From Pseudomonadales bacterium (GTDB lineage Bacteria; Pseudomonadota; Gammaproteobacteria; Pseudomonadales; Azotimanducaceae), in NCBI GenBank assembly GCA_028281885.1, contig JANQJA010000011.1, positions 129,200-193,199 on the forward strand: a stretch of 64,000 nucleotides of DNA, read 5' to 3'. The first letter of the stretch is position 1, and every line of letters starts with the position of its first letter. The notes under the pieces were generated by a model. That model did no database searches, was not told the origin of the DNA, and was given only the letters and a program-made list of their open reading frames with translations. Of the stretch, positions 3,369 to 64,000 are shown in pieces. Position numbers and translations under genes: made by a program.

Positions 3369-3371
3369 ACG

Positions 3372-34314: not shown

Positions 34315-34333
34315 TTCAATTCCGGGTAAGAGA

Positions 34334-40233: not shown

Positions 40234-41187
40234 CTACTCCCGGCGTTCCCCCTCATTCCGGCAGAACCACTCATAGGTGGAGGCCAGCCCCTCTTCAAGT
40301 GCAATCGTTGCTTTCCAGCCCAGGCTTTCGATTTTGGTGACATCCAGCAGCTTGCGCGGTGTGCCGTCCGGTTTGCTGGCGTCGTACTCCAGCTCTCCTC
40401 TGAAACCGATAATCTGTACCAGCAGCTCGGCAAGCTCGCGAATGGATACATCGGTGCCGGTACCCACGTTGATATGGGAAAGCATGGGGGATGTGACCTC
40501 ATCGTACTTGCTCTTCTCAATGCGCATGATATGCACACAGGCCGAGGCGAGGTCATCCACATGAAGAAATTCGCGGCGGGCTGAACCGGTTCCCCAGATG
40601 GTTACTGCCTTGTCGCTGTTCTCTTTCGCCTCGTGAATCCTGCGCATCAATGCGGGGATCACGTGGCTGTCAGTGGCGTGAAAGTTATCGCCGGGACCGT
40701 ACAGATTGGTTGGCATCAGCGACCGGTAGTCTCGGCCATATTGGCGATTGTAGGACTCGCAGAGCTTGATGCCGGCGATCTTTGCGATTGCGTAGGGCTC
40801 GTTGGTGGATTCCAGTGAGCCAGTCAGCAATGCCTCCTCGGTCATGGGCTGCTCGGCCAGTTTCGGGTAGATACATGAGCTGCCCAGAAACAACACTCGA
40901 TCGCAGCCGGCCAGATGGGCCCCATGGATCAGGTTCGCCTCGATCATCAGGTTTTCATAGATGAACCGGGCGGGGTAGGCGTTGTTAGCGTGAATCCCGC
41001 CGACGCGGGCTGCGGCGACGATGACGGTATCCGGCCTCTTTTTGCCTAGAAATTCCGTCACAGCCGACTGATTGATCAGGTCGATTTCACCTCGGGACGC
41101 AAGAATCAGCTGTTCTTCAGAGCCAGTCAGTGCCCTGACGATGGCAGAGCCCACCATACCGTTGTGTCCGGATACAAATGTTGTCAT
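40234..41187 (-). CDS. fcl: GDP-L-fucose synthase
   Basis: Alignable end to end with E. coli Fcl as I recall it ([67 protein letters not shown]). Confidence 0.92.
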
Positions 41188-44128: not shown

Positions 44129-44870
44129 CCTGCCGCGGAGAAATCCACTGAGAGAGTTTCCTGAGGGGTTTAAACAGAGTTGTCCAGGGGTAGGGCTTTA
44201 AAGCGTTGACTTCCCAGGCTCTCTGGTCCATCCGGTTTGCCTTTAATCTTGCCTTGATCGACTGGTTGCTGGCACCGCCAATCAGCATCTCCGTGATCAA
44301 CATAGGAATGTAGCTGCATGATGCCCTATGTTTGTAGAGTAATCGCAGCATCATCTCATAGTCAGCCGAAGTGCCAAGATCGAGGCGATAGGTACCATAT
44401 TGATCGTAGAGTTCCTTTCTCACAAAGAATCCAGGGTGTGGAGGCATCCATCCCCAAAGGAAACGTGATCTCTCGAAATCGCCGCCGCGCCAGTAGCGTA
44501 CGGGTTTCCCTGAACGATCTACGTACCTGATATCACCGTAACAACAGTCGACGCCAGTTGACGCCATGTGATCAAGAACTGCTTCGAGAACTGAATCAGT
44601 AACATACCTGTCGTCGCTGTTGAGAATCCCAATGACGTTACCACTGGCATGTTCGATGCCTTTGTTGATTGCATCGTAAATGCCGTTGTCGGTTCCTGAG
44701 ATATATCTATTAACGTGTTCGAAAGATTGAACTATATCGGAAGTTTGGTCTGAAGAAAGGCCATCAACCACAATGTGTTCGGCAGCGATCGTTTGGGACG
44801 CGACGCTCTTAAGACAAATCTGAATCGTTGGCGCTGAGTTGCGAGCAGGCGTAATGATCGAGATATTCAC
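44121..44870 (-). CDS. Glycosyltransferase family 2 (small WcaE-like type)
   Basis: ISIITPARNSAPTI ... HIVVDGLSSDQT ... ILNSDDRY. Its 3' end overlaps the convergent gene by 8 nt. Confidence 0.8.
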   Translation of the reverse strand: MNISIITPARNSAPTIQICLKSVASQTIAAEHIVVDGLSSDQTSDIVQSFEHVNRYISGTDNGIYDAINKGIEHASGNVIGILNSDDRYVTDSVLEAVLDHMASTGVDCCYGDIRYVDRSGKPVRYWRGGDFERSRFLWGWMPPHPGFFVRKELYDQYGTYRLDLGTSADYEMMLRLLYKHRASCSYIPMLITEMLIGGASNQSIKARLKANRMDQRAWEVNALKPYPWTTLFKPLRKLSQWISPRQVT

Positions 44871-45940
44871 GAGATCGTGGCGCTTTTTGTTCGTAGATAG
44901 AGCCAGACTCTCAGTCCGATAAAGCCCCAGAATGAAACGACAATGAAAACGGATATGACCCAGGCTGGCACCTGGCTGATTTCAAGTGCAAACCCGGCGA
45001 GAGAAAAACTGACGGCTAGAGCTAGGATTAAGTGTCGAGCATGAGATTGAGAATAGCCCAGGTCCAAGAGTAGGTGGTGAAGATGGAGCCTGTCGGCGGA
45101 TAGAGGCGATCGACCATGAGCGATCCTCCAGCCCATGAGCACAAGACAGTCGCAAACAGGAACGGCGATGGGGAAGAAAGCGGTGACAGGTTGAATCATA
45201 TTCTTGAATCCTACGCAGACGAGAGCCGTAGCAGCGATGAATCCTATTAGGCGTGCCCCTGAATCTCCTAGGAAGACGACTCTTGATTCCCCAAACCATC
45301 CAACGTTTGCAGCGTAAATGGGAACGAGGGCGATGGTTGCGATAGTAAGGCTTGATAGAATCGGCTGATTCCATCCTGTGTGCAGTATTACAAGCCCTAT
45401 CGTAGTCAAAAAGCTTATGATTCCTAAGCTCGTGCAGAGTCCATCGATGCCGTCTGCCATGTTGAAGGCGTTACTCGCAGCAACAAAACAGAATATAGTC
45501 ATCGGAATAGAGAAGTAGCCAAGCCAAATTGTTCCGAATCCGAAAAGATCTTCGAGGTCAGTGAGCCTGATCATTCCGAATATACAGATGATCAGAGCCA
45601 ACAATGTGTCAATCGCTAATCGCGTTAGCGAGTGCAGCTCGATTATGTCGTCTATTGCGTGTAGAACGATTAGAGCAAAGAAGCAAATTCCTATCGTTTC
45701 CCACACCATGTCAGAAAAACCCGGAACAGGGACGGTGATATTGGATGCGGCAAATATGATGCATAGCGTCGAAAACAGCGACACGCCGCCGGTTAGGGGA
45801 ATGCTCGCCTCGTGGAACTTTCTATGTTCGTCTGGGTGGTCTATCAACTTCAGAGCTTTACCTAGAGGCCGCAGACCAACGACAAGCACAGCAGATAAGA
45901 TAGCCGTAGCGGGAATTAGCGCCGCAAGATCGGATAGCAC
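44867..45940 (-). CDS. MraY/WecA-family polyprenyl-phosphate N-acetylhexosamine-1-phosphate transferase (initiating enzyme)
   Basis: About 11 TM helices. NAFNMADGIDGL motif and LIDHPDEHRKFHEASIPLTGG N-terminal block of GT4-family (WecA/WbpL-like) phosphoglycosyl transferases. Confidence 0.8.
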   Translation of the reverse strand: MLSDLAALIPATAILSAVLVVGLRPLGKALKLIDHPDEHRKFHEASIPLTGGVSLFSTLCIIFAASNITVPVPGFSDMVWETIGICFFALIVLHAIDDIIELHSLTRLAIDTLLALIICIFGMIRLTDLEDLFGFGTIWLGYFSIPMTIFCFVAASNAFNMADGIDGLCTSLGIISFLTTIGLVILHTGWNQPILSSLTIATIALVPIYAANVGWFGESRVVFLGDSGARLIGFIAATALVCVGFKNMIQPVTAFFPIAVPVCDCLVLMGWRIAHGRSPLSADRLHLHHLLLDLGYSQSHARHLILALAVSFSLAGFALEISQVPAWVISVFIVVSFWGFIGLRVWLYLRTKSATIS

Positions 45941-46117: not shown

Positions 46118-46909
46118 ATGTCGATCACTAGAATTTTAGGCCGGATTCGGAACGCACTTGTCGTCATTCTAATTGGTCGGTTCAAGTGGAGGTATCTTAG
46201 TTGGGCTTTGACTGAACAGTGGAGGCTAGCGAGGTTTGAAAACATTCACAAAGGTGACGCATGTTTCATCATCGGTAATGGCCCGTCATTAAGACTGATG
46301 GACCTCTCGGCCTTAAATGAATGCCATACATTTGGCTTGAACAAGATTTACCTAATGCAGCAAGAAGTTGATCTTCAGTTGAGCTATCATGTGGCAGTGA
46401 ATGAGCTTGTTGTGCAACAGGGTTTTGAAGAATTGAAGAGATTGCCTTGTCCGAAGTTTCTGTCTTCTAAATCGATTGGCACGCTAAGAAAAAGCGATGA
46501 TATGTTCGTGCTATTGACCGAAGGTGCGAACCTATCCTTTCAAAGTGATCTAACGCGAGAGATGTCAGAAGGATTTACAGTAACTTTTGTCGCAATGCAG
46601 TTGGCATACTACATGGGGTTCGATGAAGTCTTTCTGATTGGTGTTGACCATCATTTTAACGAAACTAGCAAAACTGAAAAACGCCAGTTCTTGAAAGGGG
46701 ATGATCCGAATCACTTCTCGCCTGACTATTTCAAAGATCAAACGTGGGATTTGCCTGATCTCGAAGGTTCTGAACTCGCGTATATGTTAGCGCGTTTTGC
46801 TTTCGAGAGGGATGGGAGAAAGATTTGGGATGCAACGATCAAAGGGAGATTGGAGGTTTTTGAGAAGATTTCCTATAAAGACGCACTTGCCCGAGCAACG
46901 GCGAAGTAG
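46118..46909 (+). CDS. DUF115 (MptE-like / Maf / GT42-like) putative glycosyltransferase
   Basis: CFIIGNGPSL ... GFTVTFVAMQLAYYMGFDEVFLIGVDHHF ... DDPNHFSPDYF. It is a paralogue of the N-terminal domain of the convergent 1519-aa gene. Confidence 0.65.
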   Translation: MSITRILGRIRNALVVILIGRFKWRYLSWALTEQWRLARFENIHKGDACFIIGNGPSLRLMDLSALNECHTFGLNKIYLMQQEVDLQLSYHVAVNELVVQQGFEELKRLPCPKFLSSKSIGTLRKSDDMFVLLTEGANLSFQSDLTREMSEGFTVTFVAMQLAYYMGFDEVFLIGVDHHFNETSKTEKRQFLKGDDPNHFSPDYFKDQTWDLPDLEGSELAYMLARFAFERDGRKIWDATIKGRLEVFEKISYKDALARATAK

Positions 46910-46937: not shown

Positions 46938-49900
46938 CTACCAATTTAGATCCTTTTCGTAGCCCAGTCGGACTAGAAGATCTCCATATCGTTCCTTGAA
47001 CAAAGATGTAATTTTGGGAGTAAAGTGATTTTGCCATGACTCGACGTCGGATGAACTCGTGTTGCGTAGATTAAGGCCTGCGATTGAAGGAACCTTCAAG
47101 AACGTCGCGATTTGTTTGAGGCACTGCTGCGTATTCGCGGCATAGGCCTCTAGCTTAACTGTCATGATCCGATGGTCGTCGAGATTGGCGCCGATCTGAT
47201 CGGTTAAGACCTCGCCGGATATATTATTGAGCTCGTAGAGAATTCCTTCCTCTTCGCCCAGTTCTCTCAGTTTCGGACGATCGAGAATCAATTTGTCCCA
47301 AACCCAGCCACGATAGTGTGTGTGGTGGTCGGTCTTGTGGTGAAAGTAATTCGAAATCAAAATATGTCTCGGATCCCGAATCACTCGAAGCCCTAGCCAG
47401 TCTTCGGTTGTCTGCTGAACCAGTTCAAGAGACCTTTGCGTTGTATTCGCAAAGACCACGACTTCTCTTTCGTCCTCGGCTAGATTGGAGAGGTCAATAT
47501 TCTGCAGGTCAAGTTCATCCATTTGAGAGTAATGGAAGGGTGGTGATTTGACTTCATAACCCTTAAAGTCTGCTCCAATTAGCTCGGCGACCCTGGAAAA
47601 GACCTCGAATCTGAAAAATCTGGAAGCACACTTGTGGTGACCGAAGAAGACGAGGCGTTGTGGAGCATCAGGATAACGAATTTCACCGAGCTGTCGCTCA
47701 ATCGCCGTTGTGCGTTCTTCGAGGTAAGTTTCTGTAACAGATTGAGCTAGCTGAGCGGCCAGATTGGTCTGTGACTTTTCTAGAGATTCAACTCTCGCGC
47801 TTGCTTTCTCAAGCGAGACTCGCTGAGGCGCAACGAGTTCGTTTAGTTGGAGAACAAGCCTGGTCTCTGCCCTCTGGACGGAGGTATCGATTCGGCGCTG
47901 CAATTGTCGCTTGAAACGATTGAGCGCTGTTTCCAGGTAGCTCAAAGTCAGTAATGTGAAGATGCATGAAAGCGTAAGTACTAATCCAACTGTGAAGAGC
48001 CACCAGATGTAGCTCCCGGTCGTTGTTAGGAACAAAGCGGTCAATTCCAACGCGACTACGACGCACGCGAACGCAGCGAACGATTTGCGTCGAATAGACA
48101 TATTCAAAGCGTGGCGTGCAATGTCAGCCAGGCGGCGAATCGTTCTAGGGGTCTTTTTGTTTCGGAACTGGTGTTCTTCGACTAAATGTACATCTATAGT
48201 GGATCTACTGTCGGCGATGGCTGCATTGTGATCTGCCGCAAAGGTTTCAAGTGTCTCATTCAGTGGCGGGGTTTCCTCCGTTGTTGACAAGTTGTTGTCT
48301 GCATTCGGCGAGGTCGAATTGGTGTCAATATGATCGGGCGATTGAATCAAACCATCCAATGTTTCCAGAAGTGTTGGGCGAGATCCATCTGATTCGGACG
48401 CTGGATGTTCCGGGTGATCAATAGGCCTGGTGGTCGGTCGTGATGGTTGAGGTAGTTCTGCATGCTCAATTACTGGCTTGATCAGTTCGTTCAGCGACTG
48501 GAACAATGACTTCTGCGGCACAACTCGCGTAGTGGAGTCTGAATTGTCCGACCGGCGATGTGGAGACGTCTCGGGCTTGATCGGTTGTATTAGCCTACGC
48601 AATGAGTCGAGCAGGTTCTTCGTTCGTCTTGTCTGGTGTTGTCCTTCATGAATTGCACTTGATCGCTCATCCAGCCGAATTACTTTACTAAGAGCACTGG
48701 TAAGCAGTTGGTCATCGGGTGGGTTTAGGAAGCCAATTAAATTGCCCCAGGATGTTGTGTCTTCAAGCTCACAGGGATAATGTTTGATGCCGCGCCAGTC
48801 GTGCGCGATTCCGTAGCGCTTGATCGGGTACCATTCGCTTACATAAACAGTGTATCCATTTTCTACTAGATAGTCTGCGATATCCTTCCATGTGTGTCCA
48901 AGTCTCGAGGTTTTTGAATCCTCGAACTCGCACTGGACGATTCTTGGTCTGTTAGTTGACCATGGGACGCCGCGCAGTACGGAGAGGTCGTGGCCTTCGA
49001 CATCGATTTTCAGATAGTCGATCTCTCCGAGATTGAATTCTTCAATAACGTCAGTGATTGTCGTAGTGTGAACTACATCAACCTGCTTATGGGAATCTCT
49101 GAATGCCATTAGACCACTAATGCCGGTACTTTCGGGAGATCGAAAGAATGGAACAGCGTTCGAAGTAACGTCGGAAACAGCACGTTCGTCAATGTGAACG
49201 TTTGGTGATTCGGAAAATCTTCGTTGGAGTTGTTCACGGTTCACGGCATCGGGTTCAAAACAGAACGAGTTCCAGCCGTTTTCTACAAAATATGTAGAGC
49301 TCATTCCATGGTGTGCACCGACATCGATCATCTGTCCTGGGGAATCGGTAGCGATTAGCTTTGCAATCAGTTCCGACTCATCGATTCTGGCATGATCGTT
49401 TCGTCGAAACGGTTTTTTGATGAATCTCTGGCTGGAGTGTCCAATGTCTGCTGTTGAATTTAACGCTGAAAGAAATCGATCTCTGATTTCATGGATGTTG
49501 AGAGTCGTTCTGCTGATCGCAAGCGCGTTTGAGATGGTCGCCTTTACGGTTGCAGGATCTGACAAAAGTTGGAGGATCGCATGTTCAATTGCGGAAGTGT
49601 CGATCTCTGAGACAACGAGTGCGCAATCATAGTATTTCAAGAATTCGACTGTCGCCACATTTGACGGTCCATGTGCGAGCGTTGGGACCCCTGACGCGAG
49701 ACACTCAGGCATCTTGTTTGCCAGTGAATACTGGATATAAGTCTTGGACCTATTGTCGAAGTTGTATGCGATCAACAACAAGTCAGCGCCTTGTATCCAC
49801 TTTCGATATTCGTGATCGGGAAGCGTCGAAGAAATGATTTGAGTGTGATCGAGGTTTTCAAATTTGTGCTGTGCTAGATTTCTGAAATATTGGTTGGTCT

Positions 49901-51497
49901 TTATTTCAAATCGGATCGGCTGTGTCATTGCAAGCTTTTCGATGGTCTCGGCCACGCGCACAATGCTATCTAAGGTCATATCTTCTGCGAGCGAGCCGGC
50001 ATATCTCACTAGGATTTCCCGTCCCTCTGGTGGCGTCCAAACCTTAGTTTCCCAATCGTTGGGATCAATGCCATTTGCAATTGGCTCGAAAGACACTCTG
50101 TAGCGTTGCTCAAAAGCATCTGACATCGACTGGCTAATGCTGAAGCATCTGTGAGATCGTTTGAGAAGAATCTTCAAATCTGAAAGTAACTCGGGTGACT
50201 TGGGGTCGCGGGCCCGCTCAAGTGCCATTGGCCAGTCATCCACTATCCATGTTACTAACGGTATAGTTGGCCAGCGTTCTACAAATTTCATAGCAAGTTG
50301 ATGAAGCTTGGAGTTGTTTGGCACCGGCCTATACAATATAACGTCAGGCCGGAAATCTTCGACCAATTGTCTGGCGTCATTGAAGCTTTCGACCACTCTT
50401 TGCTTTCCCATGAATGAGAAATCGACTTGGTCTTCTCCCCCAGAAAAGAATTGTAGGAGGTTTGAGGCCGGCCAATTGGAAAAGATGTTCTTCTTTAGTT
50501 CACCGGTTGCAGTACCGTCCCCGGTCCTAGTGAAGTCGACAAGTAAGCATCTTGGACTATCGCTTGGGCTCAATGGAGAAGCTTTCAATCTTGGCCGATG
50601 GAAGGGAGAAAACAGACTGTCGAAGTTTATGCGAGGAAATACCTCCAGTTCCCCGCCCATTGTTGCGTTCAGAATTTGTTGATTGCTATCGCTTACAACA
50701 GTTCGGGCCTCTTCGTATGCGTCAAGCATCTTGTCGACCTGAGGATCATGCCAGCGGTATCCCTTTCCGAAATAGTCGGGATGGAAGTGATTTGGGTCGT
50801 CGGACTCCATATCGAGGATACCGACTGAATACCGGCTGCCCAGATTTACATCTGTAGGAATCTCATAGTCTGCATCTACACCTATCAGATAGATCTCCTT
50901 AAAGCCCATATAATAAGCAAGTTGCAGACATGTAAATGTTACAGTGCATCCTGCGTATGTGTTCTCTGCTGCATCCGTCGAGAAGTCGAACCCGTCCGGA
51001 TAGCTCTTTCTGGGCAGATGCTTGAAGAAAGTTGTGTTCGGTCCGTCGTCAAGACAGTATGCAAGGTAGATTGGAAAGAGTTTGTGCGGCCCTTTCAACG
51101 CGTTTATCGCATCTTGTCGATCTTCAGCGACAAGGTGGTCTTCGACGACATAAAAGGTCGGAGTCCAGTCTAGATCTGCCATTTTTAGAAAGAATCCGTT
51201 GACGGCAAAAGTCACTTCATTCTTAAGGGCTGCAAGATTGGTTTGGTTAAGGCTGGGTCCGTTGCCAATTACGAAGCACCGCTCTTGATCCTTGTATCGT
51301 TCTCTTAAAGCCCGAAGTTGGGGTTGATAGGTTTGCTCGAAAGTCTCTTCATAGATTCGTTTGACCGCACGTAGGCCCGAAAGGGCTTTGTCAGCACCGA
51401 TTTTCTCTGTAGGGAGAAAAATCTCAGAACGTGTCGGTAGTGACTCGACTATGGAGTCGATCTCCGCTTGTTGCTTAGACTCGGTATTTGAAATCAT
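46938..51497 (-). CDS. 1519-aa multidomain glycan-tailoring protein: DUF115-like + GT1-like + FkbM methyltransferase + repeat linker + TM hairpin + coiled coil + sulfotransferase
   Basis: Residues 70-290: CFVIGNGPSL...CTVTFTCLQLAYYMGFKEIYLIGVDADY. Residues ~315-680: GT1-like (ANKMPECLASGVPTLAHG). Residues ~705-900: FkbM (IDVGAHHGMSS...IDYLKIDVEGHDLSVL). Residues 1139-1187: two TM helices. Residues ~1278-1519: sulfotransferase (LVFFGHHKCASRFF, VIRDPRHILIS). Confidence 0.75.
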   Translation of the reverse strand: MISNTESKQQAEIDSIVESLPTRSEIFLPTEKIGADKALSGLRAVKRIYEETFEQTYQPQLRALRERYKDQERCFVIGNGPSLNQTNLAALKNEVTFAVNGFFLKMADLDWTPTFYVVEDHLVAEDRQDAINALKGPHKLFPIYLAYCLDDGPNTTFFKHLPRKSYPDGFDFSTDAAENTYAGCTVTFTCLQLAYYMGFKEIYLIGVDADYEIPTDVNLGSRYSVGILDMESDDPNHFHPDYFGKGYRWHDPQVDKMLDAYEEARTVVSDSNQQILNATMGGELEVFPRINFDSLFSPFHRPRLKASPLSPSDSPRCLLVDFTRTGDGTATGELKKNIFSNWPASNLLQFFSGGEDQVDFSFMGKQRVVESFNDARQLVEDFRPDVILYRPVPNNSKLHQLAMKFVERWPTIPLVTWIVDDWPMALERARDPKSPELLSDLKILLKRSHRCFSISQSMSDAFEQRYRVSFEPIANGIDPNDWETKVWTPPEGREILVRYAGSLAEDMTLDSIVRVAETIEKLAMTQPIRFEIKTNQYFRNLAQHKFENLDHTQIISSTLPDHEYRKWIQGADLLLIAYNFDNRSKTYIQYSLANKMPECLASGVPTLAHGPSNVATVEFLKYYDCALVVSEIDTSAIEHAILQLLSDPATVKATISNALAISRTTLNIHEIRDRFLSALNSTADIGHSSQRFIKKPFRRNDHARIDESELIAKLIATDSPGQMIDVGAHHGMSSTYFVENGWNSFCFEPDAVNREQLQRRFSESPNVHIDERAVSDVTSNAVPFFRSPESTGISGLMAFRDSHKQVDVVHTTTITDVIEEFNLGEIDYLKIDVEGHDLSVLRGVPWSTNRPRIVQCEFEDSKTSRLGHTWKDIADYLVENGYTVYVSEWYPIKRYGIAHDWRGIKHYPCELEDTTSWGNLIGFLNPPDDQLLTSALSKVIRLDERSSAIHEGQHQTRRTKNLLDSLRRLIQPIKPETSPHRRSDNSDSTTRVVPQKSLFQSLNELIKPVIEHAELPQPSRPTTRPIDHPEHPASESDGSRPTLLETLDGLIQSPDHIDTNSTSPNADNNLSTTEETPPLNETLETFAADHNAAIADSRSTIDVHLVEEHQFRNKKTPRTIRRLADIARHALNMSIRRKSFAAFACVVVALELTALFLTTTGSYIWWLFTVGLVLTLSCIFTLLTLSYLETALNRFKRQLQRRIDTSVQRAETRLVLQLNELVAPQRVSLEKASARVESLEKSQTNLAAQLAQSVTETYLEERTTAIERQLGEIRYPDAPQRLVFFGHHKCASRFFRFEVFSRVAELIGADFKGYEVKSPPFHYSQMDELDLQNIDLSNLAEDEREVVVFANTTQRSLELVQQTTEDWLGLRVIRDPRHILISNYFHHKTDHHTHYRGWVWDKLILDRPKLRELGEEEGILYELNNISGEVLTDQIGANLDDHRIMTVKLEAYAANTQQCLKQIATFLKVPSIAGLNLRNTSSSDVESWQNHFTPKITSLFKERYGDLLVRLGYEKDLNW
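48222..48620 (-). repeat. Four degenerate intragenic peptide repeats in the linker of the 1519-aa protein
   Basis: KNLLDSLRRLIQPIKPE (48570-48620), KSLFQSLNELIKPVIEH (48462-48512), PTLLETLDGLIQSPDHI (48327-48377) and PPLNETLETFAADHNA (48222-48269). They are separated by Pro/Ser/Thr/Asp-rich spacers. Confidence 0.55.
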
Positions 51498-51616: not shown

Positions 51617-52615
51617 GTGAATGATTTTTGGAAAGATCGGCCCGTAGCCGTGACAGGGGCCAGTGGCTTTATCGCGAGCCACCTTTGTGAGGCGCTTGTT
51701 CAAGTGGGCGCTAGAGTTCGTGCTATCACACACTACGATAGCCGTGCCGAGCAGTCCAATCTGGAATTCGTTAGCGAAGACGTCCGGAGCTCTCTGGAGG
51801 TTATTCCAGGTGATGTTACTGATCCGTGGTTTGTCTCGCGTGTACTTGATGATCAGGATACTGTTTTTCATCTTGCCGCGCTTATCGCGATTCCCTACTC
51901 TTACAGGGCACCAGCTTCATATGTGAAGACAAACGTTGAGGGTACCTTGAACGTGCTTGAGGCGTTTCGCACTTCCTGCGGGCGCAAGCTGGTCCATACG
52001 TCTACATCTGAGGTGTACGGGACGGCGCAATACACGCCCATTGACGAGCAACATCCCCTTCAGGGTCAGTCGCCATATTCAGCATCGAAGATTGGCGCCG
52101 ACAAGATTGCTGAAAGTTACTTTCTATCGTTTGACACGCCTGTGGTGACCCTACGCCCCTTCAACACATATGGTCCTCGCCAAAGCGCGCGGGCAGTTAT
52201 TCCCACGATTATCGCGCAGTGTCTTTCTCAGAGTAGCGAGATTCAGTTGGGGGATTTAAGAACGGTCAGAGATTTCAACTTTGTTCTAGATACTGTGGAT
52301 GCGTTTCTTGAAGTCGCTAGCAACGATTCGTGTATTGGCGAAACCTTTAATGCGGGTTCCGGTGAGGTAGTTACGATCCGAGAGACGGCTGAGATGATTT
52401 TGCGTTTGACGGGAGCGAACAAAGAAATTCGTGAGGATGCTTCGAGGATGCGTCCCGAGAAGAGCGAAGTAAGAGTATTGCGCGCAGATGCATCGAAGCT
52501 AATGTCAGCAACCAAGTGGCAGCCGAGATATTCACTTGAGCAAGGCTTGAAACGAACTATTGATTTTGTGCGTAATCACATCGATACATTTCGACCTGGG
52601 ACAAATGCAATATGA
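51617..52615 (+). CDS. NAD-dependent sugar-nucleotide epimerase/dehydratase (extended SDR)
   Basis: VTGASGFIASHL Rossmann motif and catalytic YSASKIGADK (YxxxK). First gene of an 11-gene co-directional array. Confidence 0.8.
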   Translation: MNDFWKDRPVAVTGASGFIASHLCEALVQVGARVRAITHYDSRAEQSNLEFVSEDVRSSLEVIPGDVTDPWFVSRVLDDQDTVFHLAALIAIPYSYRAPASYVKTNVEGTLNVLEAFRTSCGRKLVHTSTSEVYGTAQYTPIDEQHPLQGQSPYSASKIGADKIAESYFLSFDTPVVTLRPFNTYGPRQSARAVIPTIIAQCLSQSSEIQLGDLRTVRDFNFVLDTVDAFLEVASNDSCIGETFNAGSGEVVTIRETAEMILRLTGANKEIREDASRMRPEKSEVRVLRADASKLMSATKWQPRYSLEQGLKRTIDFVRNHIDTFRPGTNAI

Positions 52616-53349
52616 ATCGTGATGTTGGTGTCCATGCAGTTATCCTGGCTGGTGGTCAAGGTACTAGGTTGAAACCCTATACTACTGTTGTCCCAAAACC
52701 GCTTATGCCGATTGGCGACGTGCCAATTCTTGAGGTCGTATTACGCCAACTTGGCGCCGCTGGTATTAAGCGTGTGACTATTGCGACCGGTTATCTTGCC
52801 CATCTCATTGAGGCATTTGTTGGAGACGGTGTTAGATGGGGACTCGATGTCGATTATTCCTTGGAAGAGCACTCGCTTGGTACGGCGGGTCCGATTGCGC
52901 TTCTGAAAGAGAAGTTAATCGGCTCTGATGTTGTTATTGCGCTCAACGGCGATATTCTTACTACCCTCAATTATCGAGAGGCTATCGATTTTCATCGAAA
53001 CAATGCGGCAGCAGCAACCATTTGCGTCAATCGGAGAGAGCAGTTTGTTGATTTTGGAGTTATTCATTCGGATGAGACAGGGCGCTTCCAGCGATATGAA
53101 GAGAAGCCGACGCTAGAGTATGAAGTCTCGATGGGCATCAACATCTTTTCAACAGAGGCGCTAGAATATTTATTGAAGCCAACCGAGTTCGACAATATTC
53201 CGGATTTGATCACACGATTACATGAAGGGGGTCAAAAGGTTTTTGCTTACAAGGAACCCTGTTATTGGTTGGATATTGGTCGTGTGGACGACTACAATGA
53301 AGCGACTCGGGTTTTCGATGATCGCAGGTCCGAGTTCCTGCCGGATTGA
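52612..53349 (+). CDS. Sugar-1-phosphate nucleotidyltransferase
   Basis: AVILAGGQGTRLKPYTTVVPKPLMPIG signature. 4-nt overlap with the preceding gene. Confidence 0.85.
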   Translation: MNRDVGVHAVILAGGQGTRLKPYTTVVPKPLMPIGDVPILEVVLRQLGAAGIKRVTIATGYLAHLIEAFVGDGVRWGLDVDYSLEEHSLGTAGPIALLKEKLIGSDVVIALNGDILTTLNYREAIDFHRNNAAAATICVNRREQFVDFGVIHSDETGRFQRYEEKPTLEYEVSMGINIFSTEALEYLLKPTEFDNIPDLITRLHEGGQKVFAYKEPCYWLDIGRVDDYNEATRVFDDRRSEFLPD

Positions 53350-53432: not shown

Positions 53433-54371
53433 ATGTCGCTACGTTCTTCGATCCGAAGCTGGTTGAGTGTGACGTTTCGGGTTTGTGTGTCTTGCGGGTT
53501 GCTTGTATTCCTGATACAGAGCATAGACACGACAGAACTGGATTTTTCTGATCTTCCCCTGTCGGGGCTAGATGTTGTAACCGTAGTGATGCTTCTTTGT
53601 CTCGGGGCGGTATCTAATGCTTTTCGGTGGAAACTGATTCTTGTTAGGTGCGGACACGTCATCAGTAGCTTTGAGGCGGTTCGCCTTTTTTTTGTTGGAC
53701 TTTTTTTTAGTCAAGCCTTGCCGACGTCCATTGGAGGAGATGCCGTTAGAGGTTACTACCTTACCAAACTGGGAGTTAGTGTAGAGGATGCGGTCAAGAG
53801 CGTCTTGATAGATCGATTGAGCGGTCTATTTTGTCTATTGATCTTGTCGGGGTCTGGACTTTTCTTGCTCTTACTGCTGAACGTCAGCTTTCAGCTCGTG
53901 GTTGTATTTGGTGTCCTTGTTTTGGCGTCATCGATTGGCTTTGTCTTCCTGGTATCTCTGGACCTGCTTCCATTGTTCACCGTTCCAACCTGGATAAGTC
54001 AAGCCAGAGGGATGTCGCGTAGTGCAAGGAGCATTCTATTTAATCAATCAGAGTACTGGATCTTTACTTTGTCGTTGATTGGTCAGGCGTTGTCGATACA
54101 AGCTTTTATTACGTTGGGCTCCGCGATGAACATCAGTATCGAATTCTACATCTGGTGGGCCTTAATTCCTTCGGTTCTTATCGCGACTATCATTCCGATT
54201 TCTTTAGCTGGATGGGGTGTTCGAGAGGGGCTGATTGTCTACTCTTTAAACGCTTTCGCAGTCGACTCAGAGCGTGCGTTGATAGTTGCAATTTTATTTG
54301 GCTTCGCGCAGGTGATTCGAGCGCTGCCAGGAGGAGTGAGTTGGCTGTTGGATAGTAGAAATGGGAAGTAG
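53433..54371 (+). CDS. UPF0104 / lysyl-PG-synthase-TM-like (flippase-like) membrane protein
   Basis: About 8 TM helices and the LPTSIGGDAVRGYYL motif typical of the flippase-like UPF0104 family. Confidence 0.65.
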   Translation: MSLRSSIRSWLSVTFRVCVSCGLLVFLIQSIDTTELDFSDLPLSGLDVVTVVMLLCLGAVSNAFRWKLILVRCGHVISSFEAVRLFFVGLFFSQALPTSIGGDAVRGYYLTKLGVSVEDAVKSVLIDRLSGLFCLLILSGSGLFLLLLLNVSFQLVVVFGVLVLASSIGFVFLVSLDLLPLFTVPTWISQARGMSRSARSILFNQSEYWIFTLSLIGQALSIQAFITLGSAMNISIEFYIWWALIPSVLIATIIPISLAGWGVREGLIVYSLNAFAVDSERALIVAILFGFAQVIRALPGGVSWLLDSRNGK

Positions 54372-55860: not shown

Positions 55861-56929
55861 TGTACATGCGACGCCGTTTGTTTTGATAACTGGCAATGCA
55901 CGATCGGGAACGACCTTTGTGTCATCCCAGCTTGCGCGCAAGTTTGACATTGCGATTCCCGTCGAGAGCTTTTTTATCCCGCACTTTGAACGCTATGCAG
56001 GTCTGTTCTCGATCCTGGGTCGGGGCGATAGTCGGTTGCTCGCTCAAGCGGTGCAGGACTATCTTGAAATATCCCTGTATGCGGGAACGCGGTCTCCGGC
56101 GCCTCAGAGCATGTTGCTGAACAGCCTGCTGTCAACAATCTATAGACAGCGAGCGACACTGAGTAATTGCCATGGATATAGTGAGTTCTTGAATGAGCTC
56201 TTTAGACTGTACGCGGAGGAGCAAGGGGCCAGCCGCTGGGGTGAGAAAGGTATGAACTATGAGCTAGAACGATTAGAGCGGTACGATCGGTGTCTAAATC
56301 ATATGAAAGTCCTTCACATCGTTCGTGATGGTCGGGACGTCGCGCTATCTTGGATGAGGGAGTGGTTCGGCCCAAAATCGGTAGCAGAGTCGGCGATGCT
56401 CTGGCGACGTCACGTGCTCCATTATCGTGCCTGGGGAAACCAGAATCCAGATCGCTATTTCGAGGTTCGGTACGAGGACTTTCTTGCTCGTCCAGATTCA
56501 ATACTTTCAGCGATCGGTATGTTTTTCGAGTTGAACCCAATTGAGTCAGATGCCGGTTCCACATTGACCGATAGCTTGCGTCACGAAGTTTGGGCGCGCA
56601 ACTTGCGTCGGCCCATCATGAAGGAAAACTCAAACAAGTGGATTCGAGAGATGTCTTCGCGCGACGTCGCCCTGTTCGAGTCAATCGCGGGAGACGCGTT
56701 GAATCGATTCGGGTATTCGCCCGCTACTGAGTCACGATATTCAAAGCTCTTTGTTCGTCGATTGCAGGGTTATGTCCTCAGGCTCGCTGACTCGAATTTC
56801 TATAGACGTAAGATTAGGAGACATCTCCCCCTGGTATTAATTGTATCCCGTCTAATAGCTTATCGATTCGTTTCGTTCCTGATAGATCGTTTTGTCGTGC
56901 GTGGCGTGCGAGTTGTGGAGGTTAAGTGA
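55853..56929 (+). CDS. Sulfotransferase family protein
   Basis: 5'-PSB loop LITGNARSGTTF and 3'-PB-like LHIVRDGRDVALS. ATG 55853 overlaps the preceding stop by 8 nt. The ORF-track start at 55799 lies inside the previous gene. Confidence 0.8.
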   Translation: MSDVHATPFVLITGNARSGTTFVSSQLARKFDIAIPVESFFIPHFERYAGLFSILGRGDSRLLAQAVQDYLEISLYAGTRSPAPQSMLLNSLLSTIYRQRATLSNCHGYSEFLNELFRLYAEEQGASRWGEKGMNYELERLERYDRCLNHMKVLHIVRDGRDVALSWMREWFGPKSVAESAMLWRRHVLHYRAWGNQNPDRYFEVRYEDFLARPDSILSAIGMFFELNPIESDAGSTLTDSLRHEVWARNLRRPIMKENSNKWIREMSSRDVALFESIAGDALNRFGYSPATESRYSKLFVRRLQGYVLRLADSNFYRRKIRRHLPLVLIVSRLIAYRFVSFLIDRFVVRGVRVVEVK

Positions 56930-59457: not shown

Positions 59458-59458
59458 T

Positions 59459-62624: not shown

Positions 62625-63383
62625 TCACGACGGCGCCGGGTCCAAAAGTCCGCCGTGGATTCCGCCGCTGGCATTGATGCACGCACCATGAACGAATTGT
62701 GCTTTCTCTGAACACAGAAAAACAGCGAGCTCTGCGATCTCTTGTGGCTCCGCGATACGTCCTGCGGGATGGAGTTCCTCAAGCTTTCGTAGTTCTTCCT
62801 CGCGGCCAATAAAACCAGCATCTAGCATCTCTGTTCTCACCGCTGCGGGCTCTATCGCATTAATTCTTATTCGATCTCTGAGATCCACTGCAAGGCTTCG
62901 GGTCAGGGTGCTTAAGGCACCTTTAGTCGTGGCGTAAGTGACAAAACGTTGTTTCGTTTGCGTCGCGTGGATACTGCTAATGTTGACGACAGCACCATGA
63001 TTTCTCTCAAGCTGTTCTAAAAAAAGCTGGATCAAGAAAAAAGGGGCGGAAAGATTTACAGCGAGGCTTTCGGCCCAGTCCGATCTGGTTACATCACGGC
63101 TACTGGCCAGCCTCTGGATTGCTGCATTATTGACGAGTGCAGAAATTCCAGTTTGATTGGTAGCTTGAGAAATGCGCGCTAAGAACTCGGCCGCGACTCC
63201 TTCATCGGTCGCCAACTCTGTTAGGTCGAGCGCCTGATGTTTGACTTTCTCATGCTGAAAAGGGTCCTTGTCAACACTATCTGTTGCAATGACCGAGTAA
63301 CCCGCAGCGATGAATTCCCAAACAAGCGCTTGGCCGATGCCGCCGTTAGCACCAGTTATCAGCACCCACTTTTGGCTAGTCAT
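62625..63383 (-). CDS. Short-chain dehydrogenase/reductase (classical SDR)
   Basis: VLITGANGGIGQAL, NNAA and YATTKGAL (YxxxK) motifs. Confidence 0.85.
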   Translation of the reverse strand: MTSQKWVLITGANGGIGQALVWEFIAAGYSVIATDSVDKDPFQHEKVKHQALDLTELATDEGVAAEFLARISQATNQTGISALVNNAAIQRLASSRDVTRSDWAESLAVNLSAPFFLIQLFLEQLERNHGAVVNISSIHATQTKQRFVTYATTKGALSTLTRSLAVDLRDRIRINAIEPAAVRTEMLDAGFIGREEELRKLEELHPAGRIAEPQEIAELAVFLCSEKAQFVHGACINASGGIHGGLLDPAPS

Positions 63384-63999
63384 TTAGGAATTCGCCAAGC
63401 AGTTTAAGAGCTTCGTTGGACGCACGACGCACTGCCTCTTCAGTATTTGAGCCGTTGTGGGAGCCAAATATGACGTTGTCGAAATCCCGCAATGCAGAAC
63501 TCAATGGCAGCGGCTCGACTTCGAAGACATCGAGTGCTGCGCCAATGACTTTATTGCCTAAAATGGCGTCGATGAGTGCAGTCTCATCGATTAGGGGGCC
63601 TCGCGACACGTTGATGATCCGAATTCCTCGCTTTGTTTTGTTGAGGACGCGGGAGTCAAGCATTTGTTTGTTGCTGTCGGTGAGTGCACAGGCAAATATC
63701 AGGAAATCAATGTTCTCGATGTCCTGGGGCCAATCTACTCGCTCCATCGTTTCAATCCCCAGATTGCTATCAATAAATGGGTCGTATCCTATGAGCTGAA
63801 CACCGAATCTCTCCAGCCGGTAGGCAATCGAATATCCGATGTCGCCGAGTCCGACGATTCCAACCACCTTCCCCCGCAGGCTGGTGCCTCTGGGTTTGGG
63901 CCAACCTCCGTGTTTTACGCCATCATGAATCTGATAAGTATGTCTCGCGAGCGCGAGAAGATAGGCGATCGCGAGATCAGCGACTTCTTCACCGAACTG
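63376..63999 (-). CDS. D-isomer-specific 2-hydroxyacid dehydrogenase family protein; N-terminus outside the window
   Basis: My manual translation upstream of the ORF-track start stays open to the window edge (QFGEEVADLAIAYLLALARHTYQIHDGVKHGGWPKPRGTSLRGK-VVGIVGLGDIG). The NAD-binding GxGxxG is present. Overlaps the SDR gene by 8 nt. Confidence 0.8.
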   Translation of the reverse strand, partial: QFGEEVADLAIAYLLALARHTYQIHDGVKHGGWPKPRGTSLRGKVVGIVGLGDIGYSIAYRLERFGVQLIGYDPFIDSNLGIETMERVDWPQDIENIDFLIFACALTDSNKQMLDSRVLNKTKRGIRIINVSRGPLIDETALIDAILGNKVIGAALDVFEVEPLPLSSALRDFDNVIFGSHNGSNTEEAVRRASNEALKLLGEFLND

Positions 64000-64000
64000 T

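What the first reader, a model, noticed from the sequence alone, without database searches (positions are those of the whole stretch)
46938..51497. 1519-aa fusion of four glycan-modifying domains around a TM hairpin
A single ORF encodes, in order: a DUF115/MptE-like domain (nt ~50628-51290), a GT1-like domain (~49458-50555), an FkbM-type methyltransferase (~48798-49385) and a Pro/Ser/Thr-rich repeat linker. Next come two adjacent TM helices (47937-48083), a coiled coil and a sulfotransferase (46938-47666). Two TM helices back to back would put all catalytic domains on the same, presumably cytoplasmic, face, anchored to the membrane where Und-PP-glycan is built. I am not aware of a characterised enzyme with this domain combination. 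It looks like an assembly-line tailoring scaffold combining transferase, methylation and sulfation activities.
Basis: partly seen in the sequence, partly recalled or inferred. Interest (0 to 1): 0.7.

Follow-up and report, generated by a model that had tools for sequence, protein, structure and literature searches.

The report
Membrane-anchored four-enzyme glycan assembly protein
One 1519-residue bacterial protein really does string two sugar transferases, a methyltransferase and a stalk-mounted sulfotransferase around a membrane hairpin; it belongs to a widespread, unstudied family built much like the known enzymes that both build and cap surface polysaccharide chains.

Summary
Window 46938-51497 (-) is one uninterrupted 1519-aa ORF. 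In order it holds:
- a DUF115/MptE-like domain, which a profile places next to GT42 sialyltransferases and Maf;
- a GT4-type GT-B glycosyltransferase;
- an FkbM methyltransferase;
- a 215-aa disordered linker;
- a two-helix membrane hairpin with both ends in the cytoplasm;
- an ~88-residue helical stalk;
- a PAPS-type sulfotransferase with intact cofactor motifs.

It is not a chimera. Methyloceanibacter caenitepidi encodes a collinear protein, and the three-domain core recurs at 38-59% identity in several phyla.

In this family the hairpin is followed by a stalk of very variable length, tipped by either a methyltransferase or a sulfotransferase. Relatives often sit beside wzm/wzt export genes whose Wzt carries the cap-binding Wzt_C module. 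That is the layout of the WbdD/WbbB polymerase-terminator systems, so sulfate may be a new chain cap. This is inferred, and the island here has no wzm/wzt.

The DUF115 clade is also tightly linked to a conserved GT2, NeuA-like cytidylyltransferase, 2-hydroxyacid dehydrogenase and SDR cassette. The cassette lies at the window's end.

The "tailoring scaffold" reading is partly supported. I rate this a new variant of a known kind.

The parts
46938..51497 (-). Whole ORF, 1519 aa, ATG start, stop codon at 46938-46940
   Evidence: The identical protein is present in an NCBI assembly and in a Logan assembly of SRR20820735. It is collinear with Methyloceanibacter P0003.
50598..51440 (-). DUF115/MptE-like transferase domain with a GT42/Maf-like sialyltransferase-type fold (aa 20-300). 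Motifs: IGNGPSLN at aa 77-84 and EIYLIGVDADY at aa 201-211.
   Evidence: Pfam PF01973, E 7e-16. This is the most conserved part of the family, with invariant E119, E125, R127, R163, D208, D229, D234 and N277. A domain profile matches Cst-II at 2.7e-5 over about 190 aa, Cst-I at 2e-4, an LOS sialyltransferase (9c08) at 7e-4, and Maf (5mu5) at 0.012. There is a faint WaaZ Kdo-transferase similarity.
49437..50552 (-). GT4-type GT-B glycosyltransferase domain (aa 316-687). E598 is invariant.
   Evidence: Pfam hits are below cut-off. The AlphaFold model has pLDDT 90. Foldseek matches BshA (6n1x) at E 2.6e-15, plus MshA, WaaG, PimA and PglH. E598 is invariant in 120 family members.
48729..49379 (-). 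FkbM-family SAM methyltransferase domain (aa 707-923), with the motif DVGAHHG at aa 725-731
   Evidence: Pfam PF05050 at 7e-18 and TIGR01444 at 7e-23. A family profile matches the FkbM structure 2py6.
48084..48728 (-). Low-complexity linker (aa 924-1138) with four copies of a short amphipathic motif. It has no homologue and is about twice the usual family length.
   Evidence: There is no DNA tandem repeat.
47937..48083 (-). Transmembrane hairpin (aa 1139-1187), with both ends predicted to be cytoplasmic
   Evidence: Hydropathy peaks of 2.25 and 2.29, a short loop, and Arg/Lys on both flanks. A hairpin at the same relative position is present in most family members.
47676..47936 (-). Helical stalk (aa 1188-1274). 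It is continuous with TM2 and ends in the conserved junction ERQxGxxRYPxAP.
   Evidence: AlphaFold predicts a single helix over aa 1163-1274. The hydrophobic period is 3.7 residues, reached by 1 of 1000 shuffles. In relatives the stalk ranges from 79 to 552 aa and reaches about 677 aa in methyltransferase-tipped members.
46941..47675 (-). PAPS-type sulfotransferase domain (aa 1275-1519). Motifs: FFGHHKCAS at aa 1284-1292 (5'-phosphosulfate loop) and RDPRHILIS at aa 1374-1382 (3'-phosphate R...S).
   Evidence: Pfam PF00685 scores 22.6 bits against a cut-off of 22. The motifs are invariant in 61 homologues. The fold matches SULT2A1, TPST and CurM-ST.
46118..46909 (+). Stand-alone DUF115/MptE-like protein (263 aa), convergent with the big gene and of the same clade as its N-terminal domain
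   Evidence: Pfam hit at 5e-10. It is 32% identical to the N-terminal domain and 42-48% identical to DUF115 genes of other phyla.
44867..45940 (-). WecA-like polyprenyl-phosphate HexNAc-1-phosphate transferase, the likely initiating enzyme
   Evidence: PF00953 at 2e-22. TIGR02380 scores 191 bits, below its cut-off of 326.
62625..63999 (-). In-window part of the conserved cassette: SDR (62625-63383) and the C-terminal 207 aa of a D-2-hydroxyacid dehydrogenase (63376 onward). The cassette continues past the window end with a NeuA-like cytidylyltransferase and a GT2.
   Evidence: The cassette lies within 10 kb of the DUF115 gene in 53-55 of 80 species-representative loci.
40234..41187 (-). GDP-L-fucose synthase (Fcl), a recurrent neighbour of family members
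   Evidence: NF047922 scores 506 bits, above its cut-off of 500. Homologues at 49-61% identity lie within 10 kb in 20-21 related loci.

Best explanation
The gene encodes a membrane-anchored, multi-module enzyme that assembles and finishes a surface glycan on the cytoplasmic face of the inner membrane. The glycan is most likely built on an undecaprenyl-diphosphate-linked primer made by the adjacent WecA-like enzyme.

Shown here:
- It is one ORF.
- All four catalytic folds have intact motifs.
- The hairpin has an in/in topology.
- A long helix carries the sulfotransferase.
- The protein belongs to a large family with a conserved DUF115-GT4-FkbM core.
- Family members have a hairpin, a stalk of variable length and a swappable distal methyl- or sulfotransferase.
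- Relatives are genetically linked to wzm/wzt-Wzt_C export genes and to a GT2, NeuA-like cytidylyltransferase, 2-hydroxyacid dehydrogenase and SDR cassette.

Inferred:
- The GT42/Maf-like DUF115 domain transfers a CMP-activated acidic (ulosonic-type) sugar made by that cassette.
- The GT4 domain adds a second sugar from an NDP-sugar. GDP-6-deoxyhexose or GDP-mannose are candidates because Gmd and Fcl are frequent neighbours.
- The FkbM domain O-methylates the product.
- The sulfotransferase, held about 13 nm from the membrane on the stalk, sulfates the distal end of the growing chain. It would then act like the WbdD/WbbB terminators, where a coiled-coil ruler places the capping enzyme away from the polymerase.
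For: - ORF and domains.
- Topology.
- Collinear orthologue in a complete genome.
- Family: 549 hits. The N-terminal ~61% (about 930 aa) is 45-52% identical in proteins of 975-2455 aa whose C-termini differ.
- Hairpin: it lies about 60-220 aa after the FkbM domain in most members.
- Distal enzyme: Methyltransf_24/CmcI-type in P0014, P0016, P0012 and P0071, with stalks of about 147, 184, 677 and 230 aa. In about 30 representative clusters it is this sulfotransferase, with stalks of 79-552 aa.
- The same hairpin-stalk-sulfotransferase module also exists as separate proteins: P0124, P0129, P0131 and P0133.
- wzm plus wzt lie directly beside the giant gene in L006, L015, L019, L030, L056, L008-L010 and L088.
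- Those Wzt proteins carry Wzt_C: L056 scores 41 bits, above the cut-off of 30.4, and three others have E 3e-6 to 2e-4.
- Published model: in terminated ABC-transporter-dependent O-antigens the extended coiled coil is the marker of the strategy. The terminator sits at its distal end, and a Wzt carbohydrate-binding module reads the cap (PMC11231755, read).
- Cassette linkage. The only solved relatives of its cytidylyltransferase are CMP-Neu5Ac synthetases.
- Donors: Maf enzymes use CMP-nonulosonic acids and CMP-Kdo (abstracts of 10.1101/2020.06.03.131540 and PMC11339370).
Against: - No wzm/wzt is present in the 64-kb window or in the 2 kb of island beyond it. The Methyloceanibacter, L004, L086 and L087 loci also lack one within 10 kb.
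- The stalk here is short, about 88 residues, and is not a clean heptad coiled coil. Oligomerisation was not tested.
- The catalytic core hangs on a roughly 215-aa flexible linker, not close to the membrane as in WbbB.
- The locus has other sulfotransferases (55799-56929 and 19009-21039) and other methyltransferases. Sulfate and methyl groups may therefore decorate the chain rather than cap it.
- No activity, donor, acceptor or product was tested, and sulfate is not a documented chain terminator.
- A PglB-type oligosaccharyltransferase 23 kb away allows a short defined oligosaccharide instead of a polymer.
Confidence: 0.5

Rival explanations
1. It is a non-processive tailoring scaffold. The protein adds one acidic sugar, one hexose, one methyl and one sulfate to a defined lipid-linked oligosaccharide. 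That oligosaccharide is then flipped and used for protein N-glycosylation by the PglB homologue, or for a lipooligosaccharide. This is essentially the first reader's reading.
For: - A PglB/STT3 homologue lies at 21723-23882.
- WecA-like, GT4 and several GT2 genes are in the same island.
- The island has a flippase-like LPG_synthase_TM protein and two 10-TM proteins instead of wzm/wzt.
- No ABC exporter is present in the island.
Against: - PglB is found beside none of 80 related loci.
- Here it is separated from the island by a type II secretion / type IV pilus cluster and lies in the 58% GC part of the window, not the 48% GC island.
- This reading does not explain the variable-length stalk with a swappable distal enzyme, or the wzt-Wzt_C neighbours in relatives.
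Confidence: 0.25
2. It is a polymerase with in-line decoration. The DUF115 and GT4 domains polymerise a disaccharide repeat. The FkbM and sulfotransferase domains modify every repeat. The hairpin and stalk serve only for membrane anchoring and dimerisation, not for measuring or terminating the chain.
For: - Two GT modules are the usual number for a disaccharide-repeat polymerase, as in WbbB (PMC11231755).
- The extra stand-alone sulfotransferases and methyltransferases in the locus suggest heavy decoration.
- Some family members have the core and hairpin but no distal enzyme, for example P0029. Others have the core only and still sit next to wzm/wzt, as in L008-L010.
Against: - Stalk length ranges from 79 to about 680 aa while the flanking modules stay conserved. 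That is hard to explain by dimerisation alone.
- The Wzt_C modules in relatives imply a specific terminal epitope.
Confidence: 0.2
3. It is a Maf-like protein glycosyltransferase that directly O-glycosylates a pilin, a secreted protein or a flagellin in the cytoplasm.
For: - The characterised PF01973 members discussed in the papers found are Maf flagellin glycosyltransferases.
- A type II secretion / type IV pilus gene cluster lies next to the island here. The closest homologue, P0002, also sits near one.
Against: - Similarity to Maf (5mu5, E 0.012) is weaker than to the lipooligosaccharide sialyltransferases Cst-II and Cst-I.
- No flagellin or pilin genes were noted among the listed neighbours of the fetched relatives.
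- The neighbours seen are wzm/wzt, WecA-like and nucleotide-sugar genes.
Confidence: 0.04
4. It is an assembly chimera or an overlooked frameshift that joins separate genes.
For: None was found. The linker at aa 924-1138 has no homologue.
Against: - The reading frame is uninterrupted.
- The same protein appears in two assemblies, although these may share reads.
- The collinear protein in the complete Methyloceanibacter genome aligns on both sides of the linker, at 49% and 45% identity.
- Dozens of further proteins carry the same C-terminal module on a giant N-terminal part.
Confidence: 0.01

Closest known systems
WbbB of Klebsiella pneumoniae O12 / Raoultella terrigena, a single-protein polymerase-terminator
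   Same: - One polypeptide combines glycosyltransferase modules with a chain-finishing enzyme, separated by a long helical spacer.
- One module uses a CMP-activated ulosonic acid.
- It acts on an Und-PP-linked glycan started by WecA.
- Relatives of the window protein sit next to wzm/wzt with a Wzt_C module.
   Different: - The WbbB terminator is a GT99 beta-Kdo transferase at the N-terminus and its polymerase modules are C-terminal. It is not reported to have a TM hairpin, methyltransferase or sulfotransferase.
- Here the ulosonic-type transferase is DUF115/GT42-like and the distal enzyme is a sulfotransferase.
- The anchor is a TM hairpin in the middle of the protein.
- No sequence relationship to WbbB was found in any search.
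WbdD of E. coli O9a/O8, a coiled-coil terminator and chain-length ruler
   Same: A small-group transferase is held away from a membrane anchor by an extended helical stalk whose length differs between homologues. Methyltransferase-tipped family members are the closest analogy.
   Different: - WbdD has a methyltransferase, with or without a kinase, at the N-terminus.
- Its anchor is a C-terminal amphipathic helix rather than a TM hairpin.
- It recruits a separate polymerase, WbdA.
- Here the order is reversed, the polymerase-like modules are fused, and the cap would be sulfate.
- The ruler function was not tested here.
Cst-II / Cst-I (CAZy GT42) and Maf flagellin glycosyltransferases (PF01973)
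   Same: The N-terminal domain shares the GNGPSL and G-(Y/F)-K/E-E-I-Y-L-x-G-x-D motifs. A domain profile matches over about 190 residues. A NeuA-like CMP-sugar synthetase is linked in the genome.
   Different: - E-values are only 1e-5 to 1e-2.
- In the HMM alignment, the Cst-II residue that I recall (from memory) as the catalytic base, His188, does not appear to align with a His. The family instead has an invariant HFHPDY motif.
- The donor is unknown.
- No known member is fused to GT4, FkbM and sulfotransferase domains.
Klebsiella O7 ORF6 (methyltransferase-kinase, coiled coil, two GT2 modules)
   Same: It is a multi-module protein with a terminator on one side of a coiled coil and glycosyltransferases on the other. 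This shows that module distribution in these systems is flexible.
   Different: The catalytic families differ, ORF6 is not described as having a TM hairpin, and its cap is methyl phosphate.

Membership tests
Polymerase-terminator glycan assembly proteins of ABC-transporter-dependent pathways (WbdD/WbbB type) | Extended coiled-coil spacer within the protein | tested here: inconclusive
   AlphaFold predicts one continuous helix over aa 1163-1274. The hydrophobic period is 3.7 residues, reached by 1 of 1000 shuffles, but the heptad pattern is not clean and the oligomeric state is unknown. Relatives have much longer stalks that match coiled-coil models (Apolipoprotein, DUF7310).
Polymerase-terminator glycan assembly proteins of ABC-transporter-dependent pathways (WbdD/WbbB type) | Terminating (capping) enzyme at the end of the spacer far from the membrane | tested here: inconclusive
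   The architecture fits: the sulfotransferase is at the far end of the stalk, and in relatives it is interchangeable with a methyltransferase. Capping activity cannot be tested with these tools.
Polymerase-terminator glycan assembly proteins of ABC-transporter-dependent pathways (WbdD/WbbB type) | wzm/wzt exporter in the locus, with a Wzt C-terminal carbohydrate-binding module | tested here: not met
   There is none in the 64-kb window or in the rest of the island. The feature is met in relatives' loci L006, L015, L019, L056 (wzm + wzt-Wzt_C) and L088 (wzm + wzt). The rest of the source genome was not available.
Polymerase-terminator glycan assembly proteins of ABC-transporter-dependent pathways (WbdD/WbbB type) | Processive polymerising glycosyltransferase modules | not testable with these tools
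   Two GT domains with conserved catalytic-site residues are present. Processivity needs biochemistry.
PF01973 MptE-like / DUF115 (Maf, GT42-like fold) | Pfam model matched above the curated cut-off, with the GNGPSL nucleotide-binding motif | tested here: met
   The score is 58.8 bits against a cut-off of 34.6. The motif is invariant. The profile matches Cst-II and Maf structures.
CAZy GT4 (retaining GT-B) | GT-B two-Rossmann fold with the conserved C-terminal Glu of the EX7E region | tested here: met
   Foldseek matches BshA, MshA, WaaG, PimA and PglH at E 1e-15 to 1e-11 with target TM about 0.7. E598 is invariant. Pfam sequence scores are below cut-off, so the domain is a divergent member.
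FkbM family methyltransferases (PF05050 / TIGR01444) | Model matched above cut-off, with a SAM-binding DxGAxxG motif | tested here: met
   Scores are 65.8 bits against 22.7 and 81.6 bits against 37.7. The motif DVGAHHG lies at aa 725-731.
PAPS-dependent sulfotransferases (PF00685) | Sulfotransferase fold with a 5'-phosphosulfate-binding loop and a 3'-phosphate-binding R...S motif | tested here: met
   The score of 22.6 bits is just above the cut-off of 22. GHHKCAS and RDPRxxxxS are invariant in 61 homologues. The best 48 structural matches are all sulfotransferases.

The most novel reading that the evidence does not exclude
Two linked novelties remain open.

(1) The DUF115 clade to which the N-terminal domain belongs may define an undescribed pathway. 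It is linked across at least six to eight phyla to the cassette of GT2, NeuA-like cytidylyltransferase, D-2-hydroxyacid dehydrogenase and SDR. The cassette could make a CMP-activated 2-keto (ulosonic) acid sugar without a NeuB/KdsA-type condensing enzyme, for example a hex-2-ulosonic acid made by oxidising an aldose or aldonate. A sialyltransferase-like enzyme would then transfer it.

(2) In the sulfotransferase-tipped subfamily, sulfation by a stalk-mounted enzyme may be a new chemical way to terminate, and so to measure, a bacterial polysaccharide chain.
Probability: 0.2. Interest if true: 0.8.

Novelty: new variant of a known kind. Interest (0 to 1): 0.55.

Why it matters
How bacteria set the length of surface polysaccharides is understood for only a few enterobacterial systems. 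In those, the caps are methyl, methyl phosphate or Kdo. This family would extend the ruler-and-cap principle in several ways:
- to many environmental phyla;
- to a transmembrane-hairpin anchor;
- to a possible sulfate cap, which bears on how marine and sediment bacteria make sulfated glycans.

The strongly conserved DUF115 core and its linked cytidylyltransferase cassette also point to a widespread acidic sugar whose identity is unknown. Both ideas can be tested directly with cloned genes. Methyloceanibacter caenitepidi, a named isolate with a complete genome, carries a collinear orthologue.

Tried and rejected
- **Assembly chimera or frameshift:** rejected, because of the collinear orthologue and dozens of similar fusions.
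- **LegB-like dehydratase (51617-52615) as the conserved partner of the giant gene:** rejected. The epimerases next to relatives are only 25-31% identical to it. Fcl and the cytidylyltransferase cassette are the recurrent neighbours instead.
- **PglB as a conserved partner:** rejected, 0 of 80 loci.
- **First strict ABC-ATPase regular expression:** it found almost nothing, because Wzt-type proteins have YSxGM in place of LSGGQ.
- **Identifying the source organism:** this failed. The proteins are unnamed singletons, the genome scan did not return the source genome, and the PglB search gave unnamed hits.
- **Sequence search of the whole protein against PDB:** only chance hits on the TM region. 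Profiles were needed.
- **Foldseek on the three-domain model:** the hits listed were dominated by the GT-B domain, so the DUF115 fold could not be searched on its own.
- **DNA tandem repeats in the linker:** none.
- **Promoter and terminator scans:** no more sites than in shuffled sequence.
- **Literature searches** for sulfate as a chain terminator, and for this domain combination: nothing found. A link between the cassette and the 4-deoxy-2-hexulosonic acid of the E. coli K3 capsule could not be tested.
Full report
**1. Observation**

Window 46938..51497 on the minus strand is a single ATG-initiated ORF of 1519 codons with no internal stop.

Library scans give four domains:
- MptE-like/DUF115 at aa 53-212 (E 7e-16, above cut-off).
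- Weak Glyco_transf_4 and Glyco_trans_1_4 matches at aa 362-647.
- FkbM at aa 725-883 (Pfam 7e-18, TIGR01444 7e-23).
- Sulfotransfer_1 at aa 1372-1470 (22.6 bits against a cut-off of 22).

Hydropathy shows exactly two TM-like segments, aa 1139-1161 and 1165-1187. These correspond to nt 47937-48083. The loop is very short and Arg/Lys residues cluster on both flanks, so both ends should be cytoplasmic.

**2. Structure models**

*C-terminal part.* An AlphaFold model of aa 1100-1519, built on 61 homologues, has mean pLDDT 86.9. It shows TM1, a short loop, and then one unbroken helix from aa 1163 to 1274. That helix is TM2 plus about 88 residues, roughly 13 nm. It leads into a globular domain with pLDDT above 90. 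The 48 best PDB matches of that domain are all PAPS sulfotransferases.

The cofactor motifs FFGHHKCAS (aa 1284-1292) and RDPRxxxxS (aa 1374-1382) are invariant across the 61 homologues.

The stalk has a hydrophobic period of 3.7 residues, reached by 1 of 1000 shuffles. It is not a clean heptad pattern, and a monomer model cannot show oligomerisation.

*N-terminal part.* A model of aa 1-930 has mean pLDDT 90 and shows three separate domains. The central one matches GT4 enzymes (BshA, MshA, WaaG, PimA, PglH) at E down to 2.6e-15 with target TM about 0.7.

A profile of the DUF115 domain alone matches:
- the GT42 sialyltransferase Cst-II at 2.7e-5 over about 190 residues;
- Cst-I at 2e-4;
- another lipooligosaccharide sialyltransferase at 7e-4;
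- Maf at 0.012.

All four assignments are therefore supported, and each domain keeps its family's conserved motifs.

**3. Not a chimera, and not unique**

The identical protein is present in an NCBI assembly and in a Logan assembly of SRR20820735.

Methyloceanibacter caenitepidi (complete genome AP014648.1) encodes a 1387-aa protein that aligns at 49% identity over aa 9-936 and at 45% over aa 1126-1519. The second stretch includes the hairpin, stalk and sulfotransferase. Only the linker differs.

A search of 5.8 billion proteins gave 549 hits. The first ~61% of the query (about 930 aa: DUF115, GT4 and FkbM) is 45-52% identical in proteins of 975-2455 aa. Their remaining parts carry extra GT2 or GT1 modules, Methyltransf_24/CmcI/TylF methyltransferases, TPR repeats or this sulfotransferase.

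A scan of one genome per GTDB species found at least 467 loci with a DUF115 relative. The full core occurs in Hyphomonadaceae, Maricaulis/Oceanicaulis, Rhodobacterales, Methyloligella, Rhodospirillales, Gammaproteobacteria, cyanobacteria, a Desulfatitalea MAG and Planctomycetaceae.

**4. Family anatomy**

In most members a two-helix hairpin follows the FkbM domain after a linker of 57-223 aa. After the hairpin comes a helical stretch of very variable length and then a small-group transferase.

With a C-terminal Methyltransf_24-type domain the stalk lengths are:
- about 147 aa in P0014;
- about 184 aa in P0016;
- about 230 aa in P0071 (Hyphomonas);
- about 677 aa in P0012 (Litorimonas), which matches an apolipoprotein-like coiled-coil model.

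With the sulfotransferase, the distance from TM2 to the PAPS loop is 79, 79, 100 (the query), 133, 150, 152, 160, 165, 176, 209, 274, 411, 479, 497 and 552 aa. Pro and Gly are few in the shorter stalks.

The hairpin-stalk-sulfotransferase module also exists as separate proteins (P0124, P0129, P0131-P0133). In P0127 it is fused to a lone DUF115 domain. The catalytic domain alone exists as proteins of about 240 aa.

An exhaustive HMMER search of 1.84 billion representatives found 55 clusters at E<=1e-30. Of the 31 best, 27 place the domain at the extreme C-terminus of 861-2575-aa proteins.

Some members have the core and hairpin only (P0029), or the core only (L008-L010).

**5. Genomic context elsewhere**

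Wzt-type ABC ATPases, recognised by GxNGxGK[ST] plus the YSxGM signature, lie within 10 kb in 22 of 80 species-representative loci.

In L006, L015, L019, L030 and L056 (Hyphomonadaceae, Maricaulis, Oceanicaulis) a 6-TM wzm and a wzt of 347-437 aa sit directly beside the giant gene. In the gammaproteobacterial MAGs a wzt lies immediately upstream of it (L008-L010), with a wzm-like 4-TM gene before it in L008.

Four of those Wzt proteins match the Wzt_C carbohydrate-binding module. L056 scores 41 bits, above the cut-off of 30.4. The others have E 3e-6 to 2e-4.

A sulfotransferase-tipped member (P0006, locus L088) is followed directly by ABC2_membrane and ABC_tran genes.

According to the Whitfield laboratory's synthesis (PMC11231755), terminated ABC-transporter-dependent O-antigens share three features:
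- a terminating enzyme at its distal end;
- a Wzt module that recognises the cap.

The known caps are methyl, methyl phosphate and Kdo. The family described here has the same three features in a different arrangement, with a TM hairpin as anchor and either a methyltransferase or a sulfotransferase at the tip.

**6. A conserved donor cassette**

The Logan contig extends 4.8 kb past the window end. Reading on the window's minus strand it shows:
- the SDR at 62625-63383;
- a D-2-hydroxyacid dehydrogenase, which starts inside the window at 63376 and is open to its end;
- a CTP_transf_3 cytidylyltransferase;
- a GT2;
- then aconitase-type housekeeping genes.

The same block is found in the Methyloceanibacter locus and in L088.

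Across the 80 species-representative loci, homologues lie within 10 kb of the DUF115 gene as follows. Many of these loci are truncated by contig ends.

| Gene | Loci out of 80 |
|---|---|
| Cytidylyltransferase (38-67% identity) | 55 |
| 2-hydroxyacid dehydrogenase | 53 |
| SDR | 40 |
| Cassette GT2 | 40 |

In Chloroflexota the order is cytidylyltransferase, dehydrogenase, SDR, DUF115, contiguous on one strand.

The only solved relatives of the cytidylyltransferase are CMP-Neu5Ac synthetases (best E 8.5e-11). Its best NCBIfam match is PseF, far below cut-off.

The dehydrogenase resembles phosphoglycerate and glyoxylate/2-ketogluconate reductases. The SDR resembles glucose-1-dehydrogenase and KduD.

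The three loci with Pfam annotation (L002, L088, L089) show no NeuB- or KdsA-type synthase.

I infer that the DUF115 domain transfers a CMP-activated acidic sugar made by this cassette. The sugar's identity is unknown. Hex-2-ulosonic acids do occur in ABC-transporter-dependent capsules: E. coli K3 is cited in PMC10433991 and in 10.1101/2025.01.29.635457. No test links them to this cassette.

GDP-L-fucose synthase is another recurrent neighbour. It is present in the window at 40234-41187 (506 bits, above the cut-off of 500) and in 20-21 other loci at 49-61% identity.

**7. The window's own locus**

G+C falls from about 58% to about 48% from roughly 42 kb to the window end.

The island spans about 37.3 kb to about 65.9 kb in window coordinates. 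It holds:
- a GT2 with a GtrA-like TM tail, next to a 10-TM protein;
- Fcl;
- one GT4 and three GT2 genes;
- a WecA-like transferase;
- a stand-alone DUF115 gene;
- the giant gene;
- a LegB-like 4,6-dehydratase and a sugar-1-phosphate nucleotidyltransferase;
- a flippase-like LPG_synthase_TM protein and another 10-TM protein;
- a sulfotransferase, a YdjC-like protein and a methyltransferase;
- an epimerase, a PseC/LegC-like aminotransferase, a GT2 and a methyltransferase;
- the cassette.

There is no wzm/wzt. This is the main weakness of applying the polymerase-terminator model to this particular gene. The exporter may lie elsewhere in the genome, or a different flippase may be used.

A PglB/STT3 homologue lies at 21723-23882, outside the low-GC island and beyond a type II secretion / type IV pilus cluster. 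PglB is absent from all 80 related loci.

**8. Mechanism and rivals**

*Most likely (about 0.5).* The protein is a membrane-anchored, cytoplasmic-face assembly enzyme. Its DUF115 and GT4 domains add an acidic CMP-activated sugar and a second sugar to an Und-PP-linked glycan. Its FkbM domain methylates the product. Its stalk-mounted sulfotransferase modifies the distal end of the chain in the manner of WbdD or WbbB.

*Rivals.*
- A non-processive tailoring scaffold for a defined oligosaccharide, possibly a PglB substrate (0.25).
- A polymerase with in-line methylation and sulfation, in which the stalk only anchors or dimerises (0.2).
- A Maf-like protein glycosyltransferase (0.04).
- An artefact (0.01).

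The shown facts are the ORF, the folds and motifs, the topology signal, the family architecture and the gene linkages. Donors, acceptors, processivity, capping and the ruler function are inferences.

**9. Novelty**

No paper describing this fusion family, or sulfate as a chain terminator, was found. The source annotations that carry a name call these proteins 'FkbM family methyltransferase'.

The design principle is known. The catalytic set, the TM-hairpin anchor, the sulfotransferase tip and the linked cytidylyltransferase cassette are not. I therefore rate this a new variant of a known kind, of moderate to good interest (0.55).

Noticed in passing
window 62625-64000 (-), continuing to about 65.9 kb on Logan contig L089 (1-6201): A four-gene cassette of GT2, NeuA-like cytidylyltransferase, D-2-hydroxyacid dehydrogenase and SDR. 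It is linked to DUF115 genes in 53-55 of 80 species-representative loci from many phyla. It probably makes an unidentified CMP-activated acidic sugar.
   Followed up: partly
window 21723-23882 (-): A PglB/STT3-type oligosaccharyltransferase homologue with very few relatives: one at 50% identity and five at 25-27%. This suggests bacterial N-linked protein glycosylation in this organism.
   Followed up: partly
window 19009-21039 (+): A 676-aa fusion of an N-terminal Sulfotransfer_3 domain with a C-terminal GT1-type glycosyltransferase, next to the PglB homologue. It is a second sulfotransferase-glycosyltransferase fusion in the same window.
   Followed up: no
window 27118-37250 (-): A secretin, T2SSF and T2SSE cluster (type II secretion or type IV pilus) directly abuts the glycan island. 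The closest homologue of the giant protein (P0002, locus L086) also has T2SSE/T2SSF about 7 kb upstream, with T2SSE 45% identical.
   Followed up: partly
window 37336-40213 (-): A GT2 with a GtrA-like TM tail (a polyprenyl-phosphate sugar synthase type) overlaps a 621-aa, roughly 10-TM protein with no Pfam match. The pair resembles the synthase plus GT-C parts of the systems that add sugars to glycans outside the cytoplasm.
   Followed up: no
window 51617-53349 (+) and 59426-60574 (+): A LegB-like NAD-dependent 4,6-dehydratase (418 bits, cut-off 475), a sugar-1-phosphate guanylyl/nucleotidyl-transferase and a PseC/LegC-like aminotransferase. Together they look like the start of a legionaminic-acid-type or bacillosamine-type amino-dideoxy-sugar pathway. 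No NeuB-type synthase was seen.
   Followed up: partly
window ~42000-64000: G+C drops from about 0.58 to about 0.48 across the glycan island, consistent with horizontal acquisition.
   Followed up: no
window 48084-48728 (-), aa 962, 998, 1043, 1079: Four copies of a short amphipathic motif, L[LFN]x[STE]L[RNDE]x[LF][IA], spaced 36-45 residues apart in the otherwise disordered linker. The exact motif is absent from the linkers of other family members. It may be a docking or membrane-contact element.
   Followed up: partly
window 53433-55860 (+): A flippase-like LPG_synthase_TM protein is followed by an overlapping 10-TM protein of 441-499 aa with no family match. These are candidate translocation or polymerase components in an island that lacks wzm/wzt and a recognisable Wzx.
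   Followed up: no
window 13025-15571: A Memo-AMMECR1 fusion lies next to a radical SAM protein (the AmmeMemoRadiSam trio). With the 2-oxoacid:ferredoxin oxidoreductase genes at 1494-4388, this hints at an anaerobic host.
   Followed up: no
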